Assembly: GCA_038087875.1 (NCBI GenBank)
Contig: CM075987.1
Location: 25,546,001 to 25,610,000, forward strand
DNA: 64,000 bases
Reading direction: 5' to 3'
Origin: Malacoraja senta
Lineage: Eukaryota
This document shows, piece after piece, positions 1,577 through 63,319 of the stretch (its first letter is position 1; every line of letters begins with the position of its first letter). The notes beneath the pieces are model-generated. The model was not told the origin of the DNA, made no database searches, and worked only from the letters and a program-made list of their open reading frames with translations. The translations under genes and the position numbers were made by a program.

Positions 1577-1830
1577 GAAGGATCTGCAGATGCTGGTTTA
1601 CACCAAAGACAGACACAAAATGCTGGAGTAACTCAGCGGGTCAGGCAGCATCGCTGGAGAGAAGGAATGGGTGACGTTTTGGGTCGAGATCCTTCTTCAG
1701 ACTAAGAGTCAGGGGCGAGGGAGACGAGAGATATGAAATGGTACATGGAACAAATGAATAAAAGGTATGCAAAAGGACAAATCAAAGCCAGCAACGATGA
1801 TCAAGGAAATGTGGAGCCCATACTGGTCCA
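1577..1830 (-). mobile_element. PLE terminal-repeat fragment with hammerhead-like motif
   Basis: Reverse complement of ctgaagaagg..ctcgacccaaaacgtcacccattcc...ccagcatctgcag; same family as the 3' end of the GIY-YIG-bearing copy at 17740. Confidence 0.7.
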
Positions 1831-1907
1831 TTGACACTGGAGAAATCGAGGCCACAACACTTGGAATGTTAATAACCATTGTATGAGTGTGTAAAATACC
1901 ATTTACT

Positions 1908-2226
1908 TTAGTTCAGTTTAGTCTGGAGATACAGCAGGGAAACAGGCCCTTCAGTCCACCAATTCCACGCCGACCAGTGATCACATCGTGCACTAGTTCT
2001 CTGTTATCCCAGTTTTGCATCCTACACGATTTACAGAAGCCGATTTATCTACAAACCTGTACTATGTGCGGGGATCGCTGGTTGGCACGGGAATTGGTGG
2101 ACTTGGGAATCGGGAGGAAACCGGAGCACCGGGAGAAAACCCACGGAATCACGGGGAGAATGTACAAACTCCACTTGTGGTCAGGATCGAACCCGTGTCG
2201 CTGGTGTTATGTGGCAGCAACCGTGC
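1908..2226 (-). mobile_element. Degenerate HE1-type V-SINE
   Basis: (tttag)n tail, gagatacagca, ggaggaaaccggagcacccgg, caggatcgaaccc; short internal inverted piece. Confidence 0.7.
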
Positions 2227-2299
2227 AGCAAATTCATCAAAATTCATATTATTCATCAAAATATAGCCCGTTGCTAATGATTCTGACACAACTGATGCT

Positions 2300-2500
2300 G
2301 TCTGGAGTGAAGGGTTGGGTGACTTTTCGGGTCGACACCCTTCTTCAGACTGGCCTTAGTCATCCTTCTTAGTCTGAAGAAGGGTCTCGACCCAAAACGT
2401 CACCCATTCCTTCTCTCCAGAGATGCTGCCTGTCCCGTTGAGTTACTCCAGCTTTTTGTGTCTACCTTCAATTTAAACCAGCATCTGCAGTTCCTTCCTA
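2300..2500. mobile_element. Fold-back pair of PLE terminal repeats
   Basis: gggtgacttttcgggtcgacacccttcttcagact ... agtctgaagaagggtctcgacccaaaacgtcaccc form inverted arms around a ~20-bp spacer. Confidence 0.75.
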
Positions 2501-2954
2501 CCCAATTGACGCTGCTTGCTGTCTTGGTGAAGGAGCTGTTGCCTGGAAGCTACAATCAACAGGTGGAAATGTGCTTCGTTAGTAGATCAATCACCACACT
2601 ACACTGATTAGACTCCAGCACTGTAATTTTGAGTTCACAGTTTCACACAATGCTATCTTTAAACTTTGGAAGGTCGAACGCACAATAAGCAGTGGAGCGT
2701 ACCCTCCGTCAGAGTTAATTAAAGTGCTCCATCAAAAAAGACGCTCTGATTAACTGATTTTTCCCCCCTGGTTGTTGCAACAATCCTACAAGTGTTTGGA
2801 GGTTTTCCATTGTGGTTTCAAACTGTACAGCAGCAGTGCAGGAAAAACTGAAGGACATTCTCCTAAGTTCAAGAATTCCGAACAAACCAACTGTCGGTCA
2901 TGGCAGATGCACCAGGTTACCTTGGAATTGAAAATGTTGCCAAACTGGCACCTC

Positions 2955-3160
2955 TGCCTCAGAGGGCAGTGGAGGCAGGTTCTCTGGATGCTTTCAAGAG
3001 AGAGCTAGATAGGGCTCTTAAAAATAGCGGAGTCAGGGGATATGGGGAGAAGGCAGGAACGGGGTACTGATTGGGGATGATCAGCCATGATCACATTGAA
3101 TGGCGGTGCTGGCTCGAAGGGCCAAATGGCCTACTACTGCACCTATTGTCTTTTGTCTAT
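2955..3160 (+). mobile_element. CR1-clade LINE 3' fragment
   Basis: End of ORF2 (gagagagctagatagggctct..ggatatggggagaaggcaggaacggggtactga) plus 3' UTR as in other CR1 copies here. Confidence 0.75.
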
Positions 3161-3699
3161 TGTGTCTGTATACTGAAGCAAGACACAAAATGCTGGAGTA
3201 ACTCAGCAGGACAGGCATCATCTCTGGATAGCATCTCTGAAGAAGGGTCTCGGCCTGAAACGTCACCGATTCCTTCTATCCAGATCCATCCTGACCAGGG
3301 AAGCTGTCTGTATGGTGTACGTACGTGGGTTTTCCCTGGGAACTCCGGTTTCCTCCCACACTCCAAAGACGTATAGGTTTGTAGGCTGATTGGCTTCGGT
3401 AAAATTGTTCCTATTGTGTGTAGGATAGTGGTAGTTTGCGGGGATCGCTGGTCAGTACGGACTTGGTGGGCCGAATGGCCTGCTTCAAAGACTGCAAATC
3501 TCCAACATAAGGCTCGGATCAAGATAATTAGAGTCATTTTATTTCAATAAAACAGCTTTGTTACTTTGTGTGTAAGATGGAACTGCAGATGCTGGTTTAT
3601 ACCGAAGATAGACACGAAATGCTGGAGTAACTCAGCGGGCCAGGCTGCATCTCTGGTTGAAATTCCTTTTCTCCAGAGATGCTGCCTGACCCGCTGAGT

Positions 3700-4024
3700 T
3701 TGGTTTAGTTTAGAGATACAGTGAGGAAACAGGCCGGTCGGCTCACCAAGTCCGTGCCGACCAGCGATCCCCTCACAGTAACACGACCCTACATACACTA
3801 GGGGCAATTGTACCACTTATACTTATACCAAGACACTTATACCAAACCAATTAGCCCACAAACCTGTACGTCTTTGGAGCGTGGAAGGAAACTGAAGATC
3901 TCGGAGAAAACCCACATGGTCACGGGGAGAAAGTACAAACTCCATACAGACAGCACCCGTAGTCGGGATCGAACCCGGGTCTCCGGCCCTGCAAGGCAGC
4001 AACTCTACCGCTACACCACCACGT
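3700..4024 (-). mobile_element. HE1-type V-SINE
   Basis: Reverse complement of the full SINE consensus seen at 1029-1343. Confidence 0.85.
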
Positions 4025-60600: not shown

Positions 60601-60752
60601 AAATTTAAAAAAAAGAAGAAAAAAAGACCATTGTAAGGTTATGCCTGTATTTTAAATGAGAAACTTGTAATTGGAAATCTTTCCAAACCTCTCTGCTCTT
60701 CAAAGGTCTCCGCTGTTCAATATCAGTGGAATGCTCTATCTTATGGGCTCGG
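42687..60752 (+). repeat. ~18-kb duplicated block, copy 2 (starts at the gap)
   Basis: Begins ctcactgcatctgc (=24666) and matches through ttatgggctcgg (=42486). Confidence 0.95.
58461..58655. mobile_element. Fold-back PLE terminal-repeat insertion present only in copy 2
   Basis: 15-bp TSD acacccgtatatatg at 58446-58460 and 58656-58670; empty site at ~40428-40442. Confidence 0.9.
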
Positions 60753-61156
60753 CCCTCTCCACTTAATCTGCAAGGGAAAGCTTGTGCAAAGTTTGCCTCT
60801 GCCACTGAAAGACAAATCCAGCAAAACTCCAGAGTTTCTATTAAACCTTCAGTTTTACATAAATTACAGATTGCAGGCCAGAATCCCCTGCCTGCAGTTC
60901 AGAAGCCATCACTCACCACACAATCAATTAGCGCTGTCTGTATTTATCCTTACAGCACTCTGTCTTGTACCAAACCATACATGAATGGTACTAATCAGCA
61001 TTGCACTAAGTGCTTAATCTTAGAGCTGATCGAACAGGCATGCAGGCTTGAGGGAGAGGGGGGAATTGAAATGCTCCATACCTTGCGTTTGTTTTTATCC
61101 CCAGCACAGATTTCCAGTGCCATCCGAAGTTTCAAGTCAATCAATTGCATGAAATT

Positions 61157-61565
61157 GCACGGTGGCGCAGCGGTAGAGTTGCTGCCTCACAGCGCCGGGG
61201 ACCCGGGTTCGATCCCAACTACGGAGTTTGTACGTTCTCCCCGTGACCGTGTGGGTTTTCTCCGAGGTCTCCGGTTTTCTCCCACACTCCAAAGCCGTAC
61301 ATGTTTCTAGTTTAATTGGCTTGGTGTAAGTGTAAATTATCCCCAGTGTTAGTGTGCGGGCATCGCTGGTCGGCGCGGGCTCGGTGGGCCGAAAGGCCTG
61401 TTTCCGCGCTGTATCTCTAAACTAAAGTGAAACTAAACGTACAGGTGTGTAGGTTGATCGGCTTGGTGTAAGTGTAAATTGTCCCCAGTGTTAATGTGCG
61501 GGCATCGCTGGTCGGCACGGACTCGGTGGGCCGAAGGGCCTGTTTCCGTGCCGTATCCCTTAAAC
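61157..61565 (+). mobile_element. V-SINE with tandemly duplicated 3' half
   Basis: Full SINE 61157-61437 followed by a second cgtacaggt...cctgtttccgtgccgtatc. Confidence 0.8.
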
Positions 61566-61949
61566 AAATATATAACTATGAATGTTTTTAGCTATTTCAG
61601 TTGCGGGCAGCCTGAGGGAATGAGACGGCTGCTAAATTAAATTTGGAAGCAAGATCGTGCTCAGAGAGAGCTCCTAAATGATGAGGAACATGAATCAAAG
61701 TAAGTTCCATGGACACTCAACAATATCTACACATCCGAACAATAATTGAACAGCACAACAATAACACAACACTAAATGTGTCAGGATTTCACTGTGCATT
61801 GATTGATGACAGTAATTAATTCGAGCATATTTCAGTAAATGGAGGAAAAGCTGTATAATTAATTAGTTTATTAATGCCAACATTAAATGGAGAGAGAGGT
61901 TGATGTGGTTAAACTAAAAAACAAATATATGCTGTGAATTTATCTCTGC

Positions 61950-62140
61950 GTGTGCAGGAAGGAACTGCAGATGCTGGTTTACACCGAAGATAAACACAAA
62001 ATGCTGGAGTAACCCAGCGGGACAGTCAGCATCTCTGGAGAGAAGGAATGGGTGAAGAAGGGTCTTGACCCGAAACGTCACCCATTCCTTCTCCCCAGAC
62101 ATGCTGTCTGTCCCGCTGGGTTACTCCAGCATTTTGTGTG
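61950..62140. mobile_element. Fold-back PLE terminal repeats
   Basis: atgctggagtaacccagcgggacag / ctgtcccgctgggttactccagcat inverted arms; gaagaagggtcttgacccgaaacgtca at the centre. Confidence 0.75.
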
Positions 62141-62539
62141 TGTCTCCTATTTATTACTGCAGTTCCACATCTCGGGAGAATGCAGCCATTGCGTTACATT
62201 GGTGTTGTGTAGGTACAAATAGTTGAATACTGACCAGATTCAAATTTCTAATGCAGTGAAACTCCAATAATTTAGTTTAGTTTAGTTCAGCTTAGAGATA
62301 CAGTGTGGAAGCAGGCCCTACGCCGACCAACATGCCCCATCTACACCAGACCCACCTACCTGTGTTTGGCCCATGTTTCTCCAAACCTGTCCTATCCACG
62401 TACCTCTCTAAATGTTTCTTAAATGTTACCTCAACTACCTCCTCCAGCATCTGTGCACTGGCAGTTCTTCATCTGTGCGCTGCGGTCAAGGTAGTAAACA
62501 CAAGGAACTGCATATGTTGGTTGACATGGTTGGTTGAAA

Positions 62540-62962
62540 ACACTGCCCAGTCCATCATTGGCTCTGACCTCCCTACCAGCGAGGGGATCTATCGCAGTCG
62601 CTGCCTCAAAAAGGCTGGCAGCATCATCAAGGACCCACACCATCCTGGCCACACACTCATCTCCCCGCTACCTTCAGGTAGAAGGCACAGGAGCCTGAAA
62701 TCCAGGTTCAGGAATAGCTACTTCCCCACAGCCATCAGACTATTAAACTCAACTCAAACTAAACTCTGAACATTAATAGCCTATTGCACTTTATCTGCTT
62801 ATTTATGTGTGTGTGTGTGTATATATATTCTATGGTATATGGACACACTGAAATGTTCTGTATTCATGCCTACTATATTCTGTTGTGCTGAATCAAAGCA
62901 AGAATTTCATTGTCCTATCTGGGACACATGACAATAAACTCTCTTGAATCTTGAATCTTGAA
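62540..62962 (+). mobile_element. Rex1/Babar LINE 3' fragment
   Basis: TAQSIIGSDLPTSEGIYRSRCLKKAGSIIKDPHHPGHTLISPLPSGRRHRSL; (ttgaatc)n tail. Confidence 0.85.
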
Positions 62963-63319
62963 CATTAAAAAAAAGACATAACGTGTTGGAGTAACTCAAG
63001 GGGTCAGGCAGCATCTCCGGAGAACATGGATAGGTAATGTTTCGGGTCATGACCCTTCTGCAGAAATGGTTGAAGGAGGGTCCCAACATGAAACGTCACC
63101 TATCAATGTTTTCCAGAGATGCTGAAGACAGACACAAAAAGCTGGGGTAACTCAACAGGACAGGCAACATCTCTGGAGAGAAGGAATGGGTGACGTTTCA
63201 GGTCAAGACCCTTCTTCAGCTGTCTGACCCACTGAGTTTCTCCAACAGTTTGCGTATTTCAATAGAAGCCTGAAGGCTTTGAAATTGGACGTATAATAAG
63301 TTTGCAATCTTTATAAGTT

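What the first reader, a model, noticed from the sequence alone, without database searches (positions are those of the whole stretch)
1577..63240. Window-wide family of short Penelope-derived elements carrying a minimal hammerhead-ribozyme motif
Seen: more than 20 short repeats share the motif CTGAAGA-A-[GGGT-NTCG-RCCC]-GAAA-CG-TY, with the best copies at 3237, 9633, 13375 and 20802. Two subfamilies differ while preserving helix II: GGGT-CTCG-ACCC versus GGGT-TTCG-GCCC (UUCG loop, U-A to U.G). The repeat lies directly 3' of a PLE GIY-YIG C-terminus (17740) and of a PLE RT fragment (13113). Established: CUGANGA/GAAA/UH is the hammerhead core, and PLEs carry minimal type I hammerheads whose palindromic helix III (here ACGT/AACGTT) allows cleavage as dimers. 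Inference: this locus is seeded on both strands with potentially self-cleaving RNA motifs that could cut a host pre-mRNA. Caveat: helix I is only ~2 bp locally and there is an extra A after A9.
Basis: partly seen in the sequence, partly recalled or inferred. Interest (0 to 1): 0.75.

Follow-up and report, generated by a model that had tools for sequence, protein, structure and literature searches.

The report
Penelope-element tails carrying minimal hammerhead motifs
The repeats are the roughly 130-base end pieces of Penelope-like jumping genes, which fill this animal genome by the hundred thousand and begin with the already described 'minimal hammerhead' ribozyme motif of such elements, mostly as decayed relics, so the locus is ordinary for this genome.

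Summary
The strict motif gives 17 hits against 0.01 expected; a profile finds 56 copies, 45 after removing an 18-kb duplication. The motif is the 5' edge of a ~130-nt module lying 100 nt after a GIY-YIG endonuclease stop codon. The module shows Penelope-like-element (PLE) insertion hallmarks: 5' truncation, head-to-head inverted partners, two 3' end forms. No Rfam hammerhead model hits and there is no covariation in this genome. The window is not special. The module covers 5.6% of 200 kb of random genome, and 58,086 copies genome-wide keep every motif letter. In my 80-copy alignment 45 have lost a core letter, mostly G12 by CpG decay. Most copies read through the predicted cut site, with no excess of copies starting there. 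Verdict: a new member of a known kind. Catalysis is untested, and cutting of host pre-mRNA is unsupported.

The parts
12965..13319 (+). PLE reverse-transcriptase fragment (RYIDD 13187-13201; after a frameshift FHPALKF 13263-13283 and LPFL 13308-13319). It is joined by an internal deletion to the 3' UTR that leads into the copy at 13375.
   Evidence: Pfam gives no call on it. The atlas lead has RVT_1 on 13% of one nearest cluster. The genome holds 209,558 first-look candidates for it.
13375..13460 (+). Module copy, subfamily 1, short 3' form. Core letters are intact but C11.1 has become A.
9521..9718 (+). Second insertion of the same internally deleted derivative (FHPALKF...LPFL joined to the UTR, then the module from 9633). 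It has the long 3' form and abuts an inverted copy at 9452-9533 (-).
   Evidence: The deletion junction is the same as at 13320, but the 5' extent and 3' end differ.
17716..17979 (+). 5'-truncated PLE GIY-YIG endonuclease C-terminus, ending in a stop codon.
   Evidence: Related ORF L034:3059-3481 scores 23.3 bits on Pfam GIY-YIG, cutoff 22.6. The loose-end consensus of run X21 upstream of 17740 translates to ...LYIGET by my reading.
18080..18164 (+). Module copy, subfamily 2, 100 nt after the EN stop codon. G12 and G16.2 have decayed to A.
   Evidence: In four other runs G holds 61-93% of the depth at 18100 and 83-98% at 18105.
20717..20887 (.). Head-to-head inverted pair (20796-20717 on -, 20802-20887 on +). 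The + arm is the only zero-mismatch motif in the window.
   Evidence: A weak miRNA-model hit far below its gathering score lies here.
3185..3307 (.). Head-to-head pair (3233-3185 on -, 3237-3307 on +). The + arm has the motif intact.
2267..2459 (.). Head-to-head pair with a 25-nt spacer (2348-2267 on -, 2374-2459 on +).
1615..1700 (-). Module copy with the subfamily-1 3' UTR upstream; G12 has become A.
10077..10162 (+). Module copy with UTR, short 3' form; G12 has become A.
11314..11395 (+). Subfamily-2 copy lacking the first two motif letters.
18724..18808 (-). Module copy with UTR; 10.1 and 15.2 are changed.
23056..23323 (.). Two motif copies facing away from a 108-nt spacer (23132-23056 on -, 23241-23323 on +).
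61996..62137 (.). Head-to-head pair (62057-61996 on -, 62053-62137 on +).
62978..63252 (.). Cluster of four copies forming two head-to-head pairs (63063-62978 on -, 63071-63124 on +, 63219-63134 on -, 63219-63252 on +).
24666..60752 (.). Duplicated block (24666-42486 repeated at 42687-60752 across a 200-N gap). It carries further copies, each present twice, for example 26086/44096, 27031/45040, 32082/50092 and 36599/54610.

Best explanation
The repeats are copies of the ~130-nt 3'-terminal module (part of the pseudo-LTR) of Penelope-like retrotransposons whose endonuclease has a Cys-rich linker. The module starts at YCAGT-CTGAAGA and ends either near ...GCATTTTGTGTCTA or about 30 nt further on, at ...CAGCATCTGCAGTTCCTTCCTA. 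Target-primed reverse transcription that begins inside this module, heavy 5' truncation, and frequent addition of an inverted 5'-truncated partner have scattered it through the genome on both strands. The first 28 nt are a member, at descriptor level, of the published PLE minimal type I hammerhead: CUGAAGA, a bulged A, a 4-bp helix II with G10.1-C11.1, GAAA, an ACGU palindrome that can form helix III only between two molecules, and the cut site GUC or GUU. Helix I is only 2 bp. Shown here: the anatomy, the PLE linkage, the abundance and the decay. Inferred: that the source elements' motif can self-cleave at all, and then only as dimers and weakly, as published for this class. The dispersed copies decay neutrally and have no function at this locus.
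For: Motif non-randomness: 17 hits against 0.01 expected. Genome-wide, 58,086 letter-perfect motifs against 0 for the reversed control. PLE linkage: the EN C-terminus stops 100 nt before the 18080 copy. ORFs L034:3059-3481 and L028:943-1335 end 101 and 102 nt before the motif's first C. The HLIFxLG motif lies upstream of modules in L004, L035, L046 and L048 as well. Pfam GIY-YIG scores 23.3 bits on L034, cutoff 22.6. L052 shows RT motifs, a Cys-rich linker and the EN in that order on one strand. PLE insertion hallmarks as described in Craig 2021 and Frangieh 2024 (passages): 45 head-to-head adjacent pairs against 4 tail-to-tail and 7 same-strand; 5' starts spread over the whole module; 3' ends in two modes, 85 of 237 at positions 89-103 and 86 of 237 at 124-127. 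[quoted passage not shown] The extra base is A in 77 of 80 copies, and 10.1-11.1 is GC in 58 and GU in 10 of 80. Across lineages with different upstream UTRs, homology starts at the motif's 5' edge. Contigs of four other coded organisms carry the module and read G where the window copy has decayed G12 and G16.2. Their loose-end consensus in three runs reads AAGAAGGGTCTCGACCCGAAACGTC. Decay: G12 is lost in 21 of 80 copies (17 to A at the CpG); 35 of 80 keep all core letters and 15 of 80 also keep helix II and the C-G pair.
Against: No Rfam hammerhead family matches at gathering, at E<=10 over the window, or in a 101-nt scan of an intact copy. Helix I is 2 bp; the third and fourth positions are unpaired in 68 of 80 and 63 of 80 copies, below the 3-5 bp of most published rows. 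There is no covariation: 0.113 against a shuffled 0.114, with 274 of 500 shuffles as high. The predicted monomer fold does not form helix II (MFE -26.7 kcal/mol, z -1.04; hammerhead-like fold -4.2 against MFE -8.9). The predicted homodimer joins through UCAG/CUGA, burying core letters. The higher conservation of core letters (256 of 263 against 1945 of 2247 non-CpG cells) is biased, because the seed copies were picked by the motif. The RT assignment rests on motifs and a weak atlas lead only: Pfam and PDB gave nothing, and the homology search returned only unnamed proteins. No full-length element with two flanking repeats was seen.
Confidence: 0.8

Rival explanations
1. The short units are not merely truncated autonomous PLEs. 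They are a distinct non-autonomous family (SINE-like or monomeric retrozyme-like) of about 130 nt whose 5' end is defined at the hammerhead's 5' edge, mobilised in trans by PLE RT/EN. This can be true together with the best explanation.
For: 81 of 237 copies start at -7..+1, and many of these have unique upstream flanks. In contigs of other runs the module is about ten times deeper than the EN-coding part. Two independent insertions (9521 and 13263) share one internal deletion joining RT to the UTR, so EN-less derivatives were mobilised. Li et al. 2026 (abstract and Results part 1) argue that animal retrozymes are non-autonomous PLE derivatives.
Against: Part of the -5..-3 peak is an artefact. 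Other PLE lineages continue upstream with a different UTR that my profile does not cover, and many further starts are junctions with inverted arms. Tandem arrays, the mark of retrozymes, are rare: 7 same-strand adjacent pairs among 237 copies. The remaining 5' starts are spread widely, as truncation would give.
Confidence: 0.35
2. The hammerhead likeness is incidental. These 28 nt are kept because they are a protein-recognition or structural element of the PLE terminus, for RT/EN binding or template handling, and they never cleave.
For: No Rfam hit, a 2-bp helix I, no covariation and an unfavourable predicted fold. 123 of 237 copies read through the predicted cut site. Genome-wide counts of copies starting at positions 28, 29 and 30 are 228, 506 and 614, with no spike at 29. 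Frangieh 2024 found that hammerhead mutants do not affect insertion in vitro, and found no RNA-seq read ends at the cut site (passage). Craig 2021 notes that PLE clades without hammerheads proliferate as well (passage).
Against: Eleven core letters, the bulged base, G10.1-C11.1, the C-G palindrome and U-H all coincide, at the place where PLEs are reported to carry hammerheads. That is unlikely without common descent from that motif. Published relatives of the class do cleave, weakly, as dimers or with an extended helix III, and the Anolis Poseidon motif shows C3/G8 rescue.
Confidence: 0.15
3. One reading: intact copies in this window self-cleave within host transcripts and so cut a host pre-mRNA.
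For: Three window copies (3237+, 20802+, 63219-) keep core letters, four helix II pairs and the C-G palindrome. Copies lie on both strands, 23 on + and 22 on -.
Against: Each of those three abuts an inverted partner, and a transcript would fold the pair into a long hairpin. Monomers of the class show no detectable cleavage in vitro. No host gene was found: 23 open frames of 120 aa or more gave no meaningful Pfam domain. The density equals the genome background. Li et al. 2026 report that related repeats are depleted from introns and exons in Xenopus.
Confidence: 0.04
4. The biologically relevant form is the head-to-head pair: transcripts fold into ~170-260-nt hairpins that feed small-RNA pathways.
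For: 45 head-to-head adjacent pairs among 237 copies. Rfam miRNA models hit these hairpins weakly, for example 20617-20728, 62016-62116 and 3620-3710.
Against: All those hits lie far below their gathering scores (44.6 against 118, 39.8 against 73, 39.2 against 70), and any long inverted repeat scores like this. The arm junctions vary from pair to pair, as a by-product of insertion would. No small-RNA data were available.
Confidence: 0.1

Closest known systems
Minimal hammerhead ribozymes (min-HHR) of metazoan Penelope-like elements (Cervera & De la Pena 2014, PMC4209133)
   Same: Same box order and letters: CUGANGA, one extra base (here A), G10.1...C11.1, GAAA, a C-G palindrome with no loop 3, then U-H. 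Same location, in the PLE flanking repeat after the EN. Same massive dispersal as solo motifs and as pairs on opposite strands. Published rows such as Acropora (GGGC/GCUC, 4-bp helix II) and the fish and Xenopus rows (CUGAAGAA...C G U C) are built the same way.
   Different: Helix I is 2 bp, against 3-6 in most rows. Helix II is 4 bp, against the 'larger than usual' 6-8 stressed in the text. There are no consensus families with compensatory changes in this genome. The copy number is far higher: 58,086 letter-perfect motifs, against the 'about 4,000 and 9,000' reported for coelacanth and Xenopus, though the counting methods differ.
Penelope hammerhead of Drosophila virilis and the Culex and Oikopleura rows of the same alignment
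   Same: A 2-bp helix I is accepted there. I read 6 such rows in the extracted text of Figure S3, which its legend gives as 56 motifs.
   Different: The Drosophila motifs have a 2-nt palindromic insertion in helix III, a 6-bp helix II with a bulge, and G-C-only helix I pairs (CC/GG). Here helix I is U-A plus G-C, and helix III is the bare ACGU.
Poseidon PAc of Anolis carolinensis (Frangieh et al. 2024, PMC11167929)
   Same: A hammerhead in the flanking repeat. Reverse transcription starts at two adjacent internal sites some 85-120 nt downstream of it, which gives genomic copies with or without a 30-40 bp 'tail'. Here 3' ends cluster at positions 89-103 and 124-127.
   Different: In PAc the ORF starts inside the hammerhead. 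Here the motif lies 100 nt after the EN stop, and no ORF start is apparent in the module. RT initiation was not tested here.
Animal non-LTR retrozymes (Cervera & de la Pena 2020, PMC7229834, search listing only; Li, Clavereau & Pollet 2026 preprint)
   Same: Short non-coding repeats headed by a type I hammerhead and related to PLE flanking repeats. Monomer derivatives are dispersed.
   Different: Retrozymes are defined by tandem arrays that give circular RNAs. Here same-strand adjacency is rare (7 pairs) and head-to-head pairing dominates (45 pairs).
Rfam hammerhead families
   Same: The same catalytic boxes.
   Different: None of these covariance models reaches even E<=10 on the window or on an intact copy, as expected for a motif with no helix III hairpin and a 2-bp helix I.

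Membership tests
PLE minimal hammerhead (min-HHR; Cervera & De la Pena 2014) | Catalytic boxes CUGANGA and GAAA, followed by U-H at the cut site. | tested here: met
   Present in the family consensus. 58,086 letter-perfect copies genome-wide, reversed control 0. 35 of 80 aligned copies keep all core letters.
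PLE minimal hammerhead (min-HHR; Cervera & De la Pena 2014) | [quoted passage not shown] | tested here: met
   A in 77 of 80 copies, T in 2, G in 1. The feature is stated in the paper's Discussion.
PLE minimal hammerhead (min-HHR; Cervera & De la Pena 2014) | A conserved G10.1-C11.1 pair closing helix II. | tested here: met
   GC in 58, GU in 10 and unpaired in 12 of 80 copies.
PLE minimal hammerhead (min-HHR; Cervera & De la Pena 2014) | Palindromic 15.2-16.2, so that helix III can form only between two molecules. | tested here: met
   The consensus is C-G (ACGU). CG in 39, UG in 12, UA in 1 and unpaired in 26 of 78 scored copies, the losses being mostly CpG decay (CA 16).
PLE minimal hammerhead (min-HHR; Cervera & De la Pena 2014) | Helix I of at least 3 bp (4-5 typical). 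| tested here: not met
   Only 2.1-1.1 (UA 54, UG 10, CG 1) and 2.2-1.2 (GC 66, GU 6) pair. The next two positions are unpaired in 68 and 63 of 80 copies. By my reading, 6 rows of the published Figure S3 also have 2 bp.
PLE minimal hammerhead (min-HHR; Cervera & De la Pena 2014) | Location in the flanking repeat (PLTR) of a PLE. | tested here: met
   100-102 nt after the EN stop in the window, L028 and L034. EN motifs lie upstream of modules in four more loci. A 5' flanking copy of a full element was not seen.
PLE minimal hammerhead (min-HHR; Cervera & De la Pena 2014) | Consensus families within a genome that differ by compensatory changes. | tested here: not met
   Covariation score 0.113 against a shuffled 0.114 (274 of 500 shuffles as high). 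Helix II has 1 pair of 4 with any two-sided change, in 2 cells. Only one sequence family was sampled.
PLE minimal hammerhead (min-HHR; Cervera & De la Pena 2014) | Self-cleavage after H17, as dimers. | not testable with these tools
   No raw RNA reads were on offer. The indirect test on genomic 5' ends is negative to inconclusive.
Rfam hammerhead families (curated covariance models) | A score at or above the family's gathering threshold. | tested here: not met
   0 matches at gathering. None among 46 matches at E<=10. None among 5 matches in a 101-nt scan of an intact copy.
Penelope-like elements, canonical EN+ type | A C-terminal GIY-YIG endonuclease. | tested here: met
   Pfam PF01541 on L034:3059-3481 at 23.3 bits, cutoff 22.6, E 8e-05. 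L028 scores 20.7, below the cutoff. LYIGET...RLGDRFAEHL motifs are present.
Penelope-like elements, canonical EN+ type | A reverse transcriptase N-terminal of the EN in one ORF. | tested here: inconclusive
   RT motifs B and C, a Cys-rich linker and the EN are colinear in L052 but frameshifted. Pfam made no call on the pieces, PDB gave none, and the atlas gave a weak RVT_1 lead.
Penelope-like elements, canonical EN+ type | Insertion architecture: 5' truncation, an adjacent inverted 5'-truncated copy, and an optional 30-40 bp tail. | tested here: met
   (45 head-to-head pairs; bimodal 3' ends), compared with passages of Craig 2021 and Frangieh 2024.
Non-LTR retrozymes | Head-to-tail tandem arrays of the hammerhead-bearing unit. 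| tested here: not met
   7 same-strand adjacent pairs against 45 head-to-head among 237 copies.

The most novel reading that the evidence does not exclude
The ~130-nt module is an autonomous-looking parasite of PLEs: a hammerhead-headed, trans-mobilised mini-element whose RNA 5' end is set at the ribozyme's 5' edge. With about 58,000 letter-intact motifs it would be the largest hammerhead reservoir reported for a single genome. Intact copies brought together in one transcript, or at high RNA concentration, would cleave as dimers in vivo, giving a measurable class of 5'-OH RNA ends and possibly circular RNAs.
Probability: 0.12. Interest if true: 0.6.

Novelty: new member of a known kind. Interest (0 to 1): 0.3.

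Why it matters
PLE hammerheads are known, but their role is unsettled. Published work finds weak dimer-only cleavage, no effect of ribozyme mutants on insertion in vitro, and no RNA-seq ends at the cut site. This genome offers a very large natural sample: about 5.6% of sampled sequence and 58,086 letter-perfect motifs. Because each retrotransposed copy records the 5' end of its template RNA, such a family allows a 'fossil' test of in vivo cleavage. My first pass shows that most templates were uncut, with no single-base excess at the cut site, which agrees with the view that cleavage is not needed for transposition. For annotation, the practical point is that these motifs, and the hairpins made by inverted pairs, are repeat background. 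They should not be read as locus-specific ribozymes or miRNA genes.

Tried and rejected
1. Rfam at three sensitivities gave no hammerhead. The miRNA, psbJ and snoRNA hits are chance matches to inverted repeats, all below their gathering scores.

2. Pfam on 23 long open frames of the window found nothing relevant, only low-complexity chance hits on 12133-12964. Pfam on the two typed PLE fragments found nothing, nor on the pieces of L052.

3. Core-versus-flank conservation looked favourable, but I discount it because the seed was chosen by the motif.

4. Genome-wide counts of copies starting at positions 28, 29 and 30. The design leaks: indel variants of full copies pass the filter (TCG|ACCC, TCA|ACCC, CAC|CCC and ACG|CACC among the listed rows). 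The counts can therefore only exclude a large spike. I did not run the planned k=27 and k=31 counts.

5. In the local sample, five unique-flank copies start exactly at position 29, but inside a broad 29-34 bump of 19 of 237. That is too few to call, and RT stalling before helix II would explain it equally well.

6. RNA evidence: no RNA holder was listed, and all runs are kept as contigs whose kind is a guess. The laid contigs say nothing about expression or RNA ends, and table 6 there lists no start or end pile-ups.

7. The homology search with the 281-aa ORF gave 1054 hits at E<=0.001 among 8000 scored candidates, and the 120 listed carry no informative name. PDB gave 0 hits.

8. Earlier scan notes: nothing held by place or by sequence.

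9. Lunse, Weinberg & Breaker on dimer cleavage (PMC5785218) is not held. I cite it only through the 2019 review passages.

As a result no 300-350-aa RT frame and no full-length element could be examined.

11. I considered a hammerhead on the opposite strand (CUGAGAG fails G8/A9) and a cut at the GUC that overlaps C3 (no helix I is possible), and rejected both by inspection. I looked at a pol III B-box likeness of GGGTCTCGACCC by eye only and did not pursue it.

Full report
OBSERVATION. The pattern CTGAAGANGGGTNTCGRCCCGAAAC with up to 3 mismatches occurs 17 times on both strands, against 0.01 expected from shuffles. Printing the copies with their flanks showed that the motif is only the 5' end of a longer shared unit, and that several copies are arms of inverted repeats. 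An 86-nt profile finds 56 matches. The window holds a duplicated block: 24666-42486 recurs at 42687-60752 at 97.5-98.8% identity, and the two copies are separated by a 200-N run. After removing the second copy, 45 distinct copies remain, 23 on + and 22 on -. The unit runs about 45 nt further 3' than my first profile, to ...CAGCATCTGCAGTTCCTTCCTA, so the whole module is about 130 nt.

WHAT IT BELONGS TO. An open frame at 17716-17979 reads RLGDRFAEHLRSVR...RKLEEMHLIFRLGSLHPGGMNIEF and stops 100 nt before the copy at 18080. Better-kept relatives elsewhere in the genome add FTC..NLIYCIRCSRCQLLYIGETKRRLGDRFAEHL upstream. The one at L034:3059-3481 passes Pfam's GIY-YIG threshold (23.3 bits against 22.6), while L028 falls just short at 20.7. 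ORFs L028 and L034 end 102 and 101 nt before the motif's first C. The same EN C-terminal motif lies upstream of modules in L004, L035, L046 and L048.

At 12965-13319 the window has RYIDD, then after a frameshift FHPALKF and LPFL. This fragment has 209,558 first-look candidates in the genome. In L052 the pieces QIQGVAMGTRMAP, LRYIDDCIG, FHPALKFTWT...YYKSTDSHSYLDY, the Cys-rich GTFPCNRRRCNTCP and an EN region follow one another on one strand, though frameshifted. Pfam and PDB make no call on these short pieces. The protein atlas gives only a weak lead, scores 0.93-0.94 with RVT_1 on 13% of one cluster. The GIY-YIG assignment is therefore a tool result. The RT assignment is a motif reading.

RT followed by a C-terminal GIY-YIG endonuclease is the defining layout of canonical Penelope-like elements, and a Zn-finger-like linker marks the Neptune and Nematis clades (Craig et al. 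2021, PMC8557442, passages). I infer a Neptune-like PLE but did not test clade membership.

The copies at 9521 and 13263 share one internal deletion that joins LPFL to the 3' UTR. They differ in 5' extent, in 3' end and in flanks. An EN-less derivative was therefore inserted at least twice.

INSERTION ARCHITECTURE. The window's genome is held: 1.94 Gb, with the window at C11:25546001-25610000. A 28-nt piece of the module's 3' half, which is independent of the hammerhead string, occurs 89,889 + 90,365 times at up to 2 mismatches, with 0 for the reversed control. I searched 336,574 bases with a 178-nt profile: the window with the duplicate masked, 30 loci of 3 kb anchored on that 3' piece, and 20 random 10-kb stretches. 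This gave 237 copies, 121 of them in the 200 kb of random sequence, where they cover 11,118 bases or 5.56%.

- The 3' ends fall in two modes: 85 of 237 at positions 89-103 and 86 of 237 at 124-127.
- The 5' starts are spread over the whole unit, with 81 of 237 at -7..+1.
- Adjacent copies are head-to-head in 45 cases, tail-to-tail in 4 and on the same strand in 7. The junction point varies from pair to pair.

These are the published PLE signatures. Craig 2021 describes a high degree of 5' truncation, an inverted 5'-truncated copy adjacent at the 5' end, a 30-40 bp optional tail, and hammerhead motifs within the pseudo-LTRs near the 3' ends. Frangieh et al. 2024 (PMC11167929, passages) show that a Poseidon RT starts at two adjacent internal sites, which explains the tail. 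The window is thus ordinary background for this genome, not a specially seeded locus.

IS THE 5' PART A HAMMERHEAD? I read the main text (parts 1-2 of 4) of Cervera & De la Pena 2014 and parts 1-2 of 3 of its supplementary PDF. Their metazoan PLE 'min-HHR' has no loop 3. [quoted passage not shown] The family here reads GU-CUGAAGA-A-GGGU-CUCG-ACCC-GAAA-C-G-U-C-AC.

From an alignment of 80 copies:
- the extra base is A in 77
- 10.1-11.1 is GC in 58 and GU in 10
- 15.1-16.1 is AU in 72
- 15.2-16.2 is CG in 39 and UG in 12
- H17 is C in 70 and U in 10.

I gave the aligner 80 of 92 distinct extracted stretches. The 12 dropped rows were out of register or rearranged: 9635, 13375, 36590, 16062, 10798 and 7954 in the window, and L013, L047:4698, L018:1456, L027, L024:82 and L039:4464.

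The 'extra A' is therefore a hallmark of the class. Helix I is the weak point. Only two pairs form (U-A or U.G in 64, plus one C-G; G-C or G.U in 72 of 80). The next two positions are unpaired in 68 and 63 of 80 copies, because both strands are pyrimidine-rich. By my reading of the extracted text, six rows of the published Figure S3 also have a 2-bp helix I: Culex, D. virilis twice, D. rhopaloa, D. kikkawai and Oikopleura.

Genome-wide, 29,244 + 28,842 copies carry every letter of CTGANGA-N-GGGT-NNNN-RCCC-GAAACGT-H, with 0 for the reversed control.

EVIDENCE AGAINST, OR SILENT.
- No Rfam hammerhead model matches at gathering, at E<=10, or on a 101-nt stretch around an intact copy.
- There is no covariation. 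The score is 0.113 against 0.114 for shuffles (274 of 500 as high), and cells paired are 70.9% against 70.8%. Helix II is paired in 87.8% of cells because the copies are alike.
- Core letters are more uniform than the rest (256 of 263 against 1945 of 2247 non-CpG cells), but my seed was chosen by the motif, so I give this little weight.
- Folding an intact copy gives an MFE (-26.7 kcal/mol, z -1.04) in which AGAAGG pairs with the downstream CCUUC and helix II does not form. On a 52-nt piece the hammerhead-like fold scores -4.2 against an MFE of -8.9. The predicted homodimer (-28.1) joins through the UCAG/CUGA near-palindrome, which buries C3-A6. These are predictions, not measurements.

DECAY. 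G12 sits in a CpG and is lost in 21 of 80 copies, 17 of them to A. Of the 80, 35 keep all core letters and 15 also keep four helix II pairs and the 15.2-16.2 pair. In the window, 8 of 16 copies complete over positions 1-28 keep the core. The three that also keep helix II and C-G (3237+, 20802+, 63219-) each abut an inverted partner.

A FOSSIL TEST OF CLEAVAGE. A retrotransposed copy records the 5' end of its template RNA. If the motif cut efficiently, copies should begin at position 29. In the sample, 123 of 237 copies start at or before position 1, meaning they read through the site. A further 52 start at 2-28, 19 at 29-34 and 43 beyond. Five unique-flank copies start exactly at 29, inside a broad 29-34 bump. 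I then made genome-wide counts of copies whose homology starts at position k, using three non-consensus letters followed by 25 consensus letters, exact. The counts are 228 for k=28, 506 for k=29 and 614 for k=30. The listed rows show that indel variants of full copies leak into these counts, so they only exclude a large spike. The result is negative to inconclusive. It agrees with Frangieh 2024, who found that hammerhead mutants do not change insertion in vitro and saw no RNA-seq ends at the cut site.

OTHER ORGANISMS. No raw-read RNA run was on offer. Contigs of four runs from four coded organisms other than the best holder cover both the EN piece and the module at 80% likeness or more. The module is roughly ten times deeper than the EN part.
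- At 18100 (G12) these contigs read G for 61-93% of the depth.
- At 18105 (G16.2) they read G for 83-98% of the depth.
- The loose-end consensus upstream of 18114 in three runs reads AAGAAGGGTCTCGACCCGAAACGTC.
- The loose-end consensus upstream of 17740 in one run reads ...CTCTACATCGGTGAGACC, which I translate as LYIGET.

This shows that the element and an intact motif consensus are shared beyond this genome. How far apart the organisms are is unknown to me, and 19 further variant rows were not shown in that output.

MECHANISM, WITH STATUS. Shown: the module is the PLE 3' terminus, it carries the min-HHR letters, it is hugely amplified, and its copies decay. From the literature: this class cleaves only as dimers or with an extended helix III, and weakly (Cervera 2014; the 2019 review PMC6765202 citing Lunse et al., passages). 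Inferred: in source transcripts that hold two motifs, ACGU of one pairs with ACGU of the other, and each core may cut after GUC/GUU. Here the 2-bp helix I and the competing folds make even that doubtful. I put the chance that the source elements' motif self-cleaves to a meaningful extent in vivo at 0.2-0.3.

NOVELTY. PLE hammerheads and their dispersal as solo motifs are in print. New here are the lineage-specific sequence family, its scale, the very short helix I in a vertebrate-type PLE, and the dominance of head-to-head pairs. I searched the paper library twice and saw no report of this family. The 2014 survey's 40 species include no cartilaginous fish by a term search of its supplement. 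The 2026 preprint sampled one chondrichthyan, whose supplements I could not see. I did not determine what organism the window comes from.

Noticed in passing
window 24666-42486 and 42687-60752, N run 42487-42686: A 17.8-kb block is present twice at 97.5-98.8% identity, with the two copies separated exactly by a 200-N gap. This is either a recent tandem duplication or an uncollapsed haplotype at an assembly gap.
   Followed up: partly
genome-wide (first 100 rows); module positions 17-32: A recurrent variant reads ...CTCGACCC|ATTCC or ...CTCAACCC|ATTCC. It looks like a 12-nt deletion between the two ACCC repeats that removes GAAACGTC, half of the hammerhead core. About 37 of the first 100 listed rows show it. 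Only three upstream letters are visible, so this reading is an inference.
   Followed up: no
module positions -5..+1, e.g. L045:7606, L044:2079, L042:7314, window 27037: Many unique-flank copies begin at YCAGT|CTGAAGA, the 5' edge of the hammerhead-like string. UCAGUCUGA is a near-palindrome and is the predicted homodimer interface. The cause is unexplained: a transcription start, RNA processing, or snap-back priming.
   Followed up: partly
window 9521-9760 and 13263-13500: Two insertions share the same internal deletion joining RT (LPFL) to the 3' UTR. They differ in 5' extent and in 3' end form. This suggests an EN-less non-autonomous PLE derivative that was mobilised repeatedly.
   Followed up: partly
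window 12133-12964: This stretch is open in several frames on both strands and gives only low-complexity chance Pfam hits. It is probably a simple or low-complexity repeat just upstream of the RT fragment.
   Followed up: no
module positions ~47-55 with ~113-121 (L035:885-1022): The MFE fold has a long-range 9-bp stem, UAGAUGCUG with CAGCAUCUG, linking the body of the module to the optional tail. It may bear on where reverse transcription starts.
   Followed up: no
window 20551-20728: A second kind of long hairpin lies next to the 20796/20802 pair. It is built from the module's tail parts (tail-to-tail and head-to-head arms) and gives the best, still sub-threshold, miRNA-model scores in the window.
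   Followed up: no
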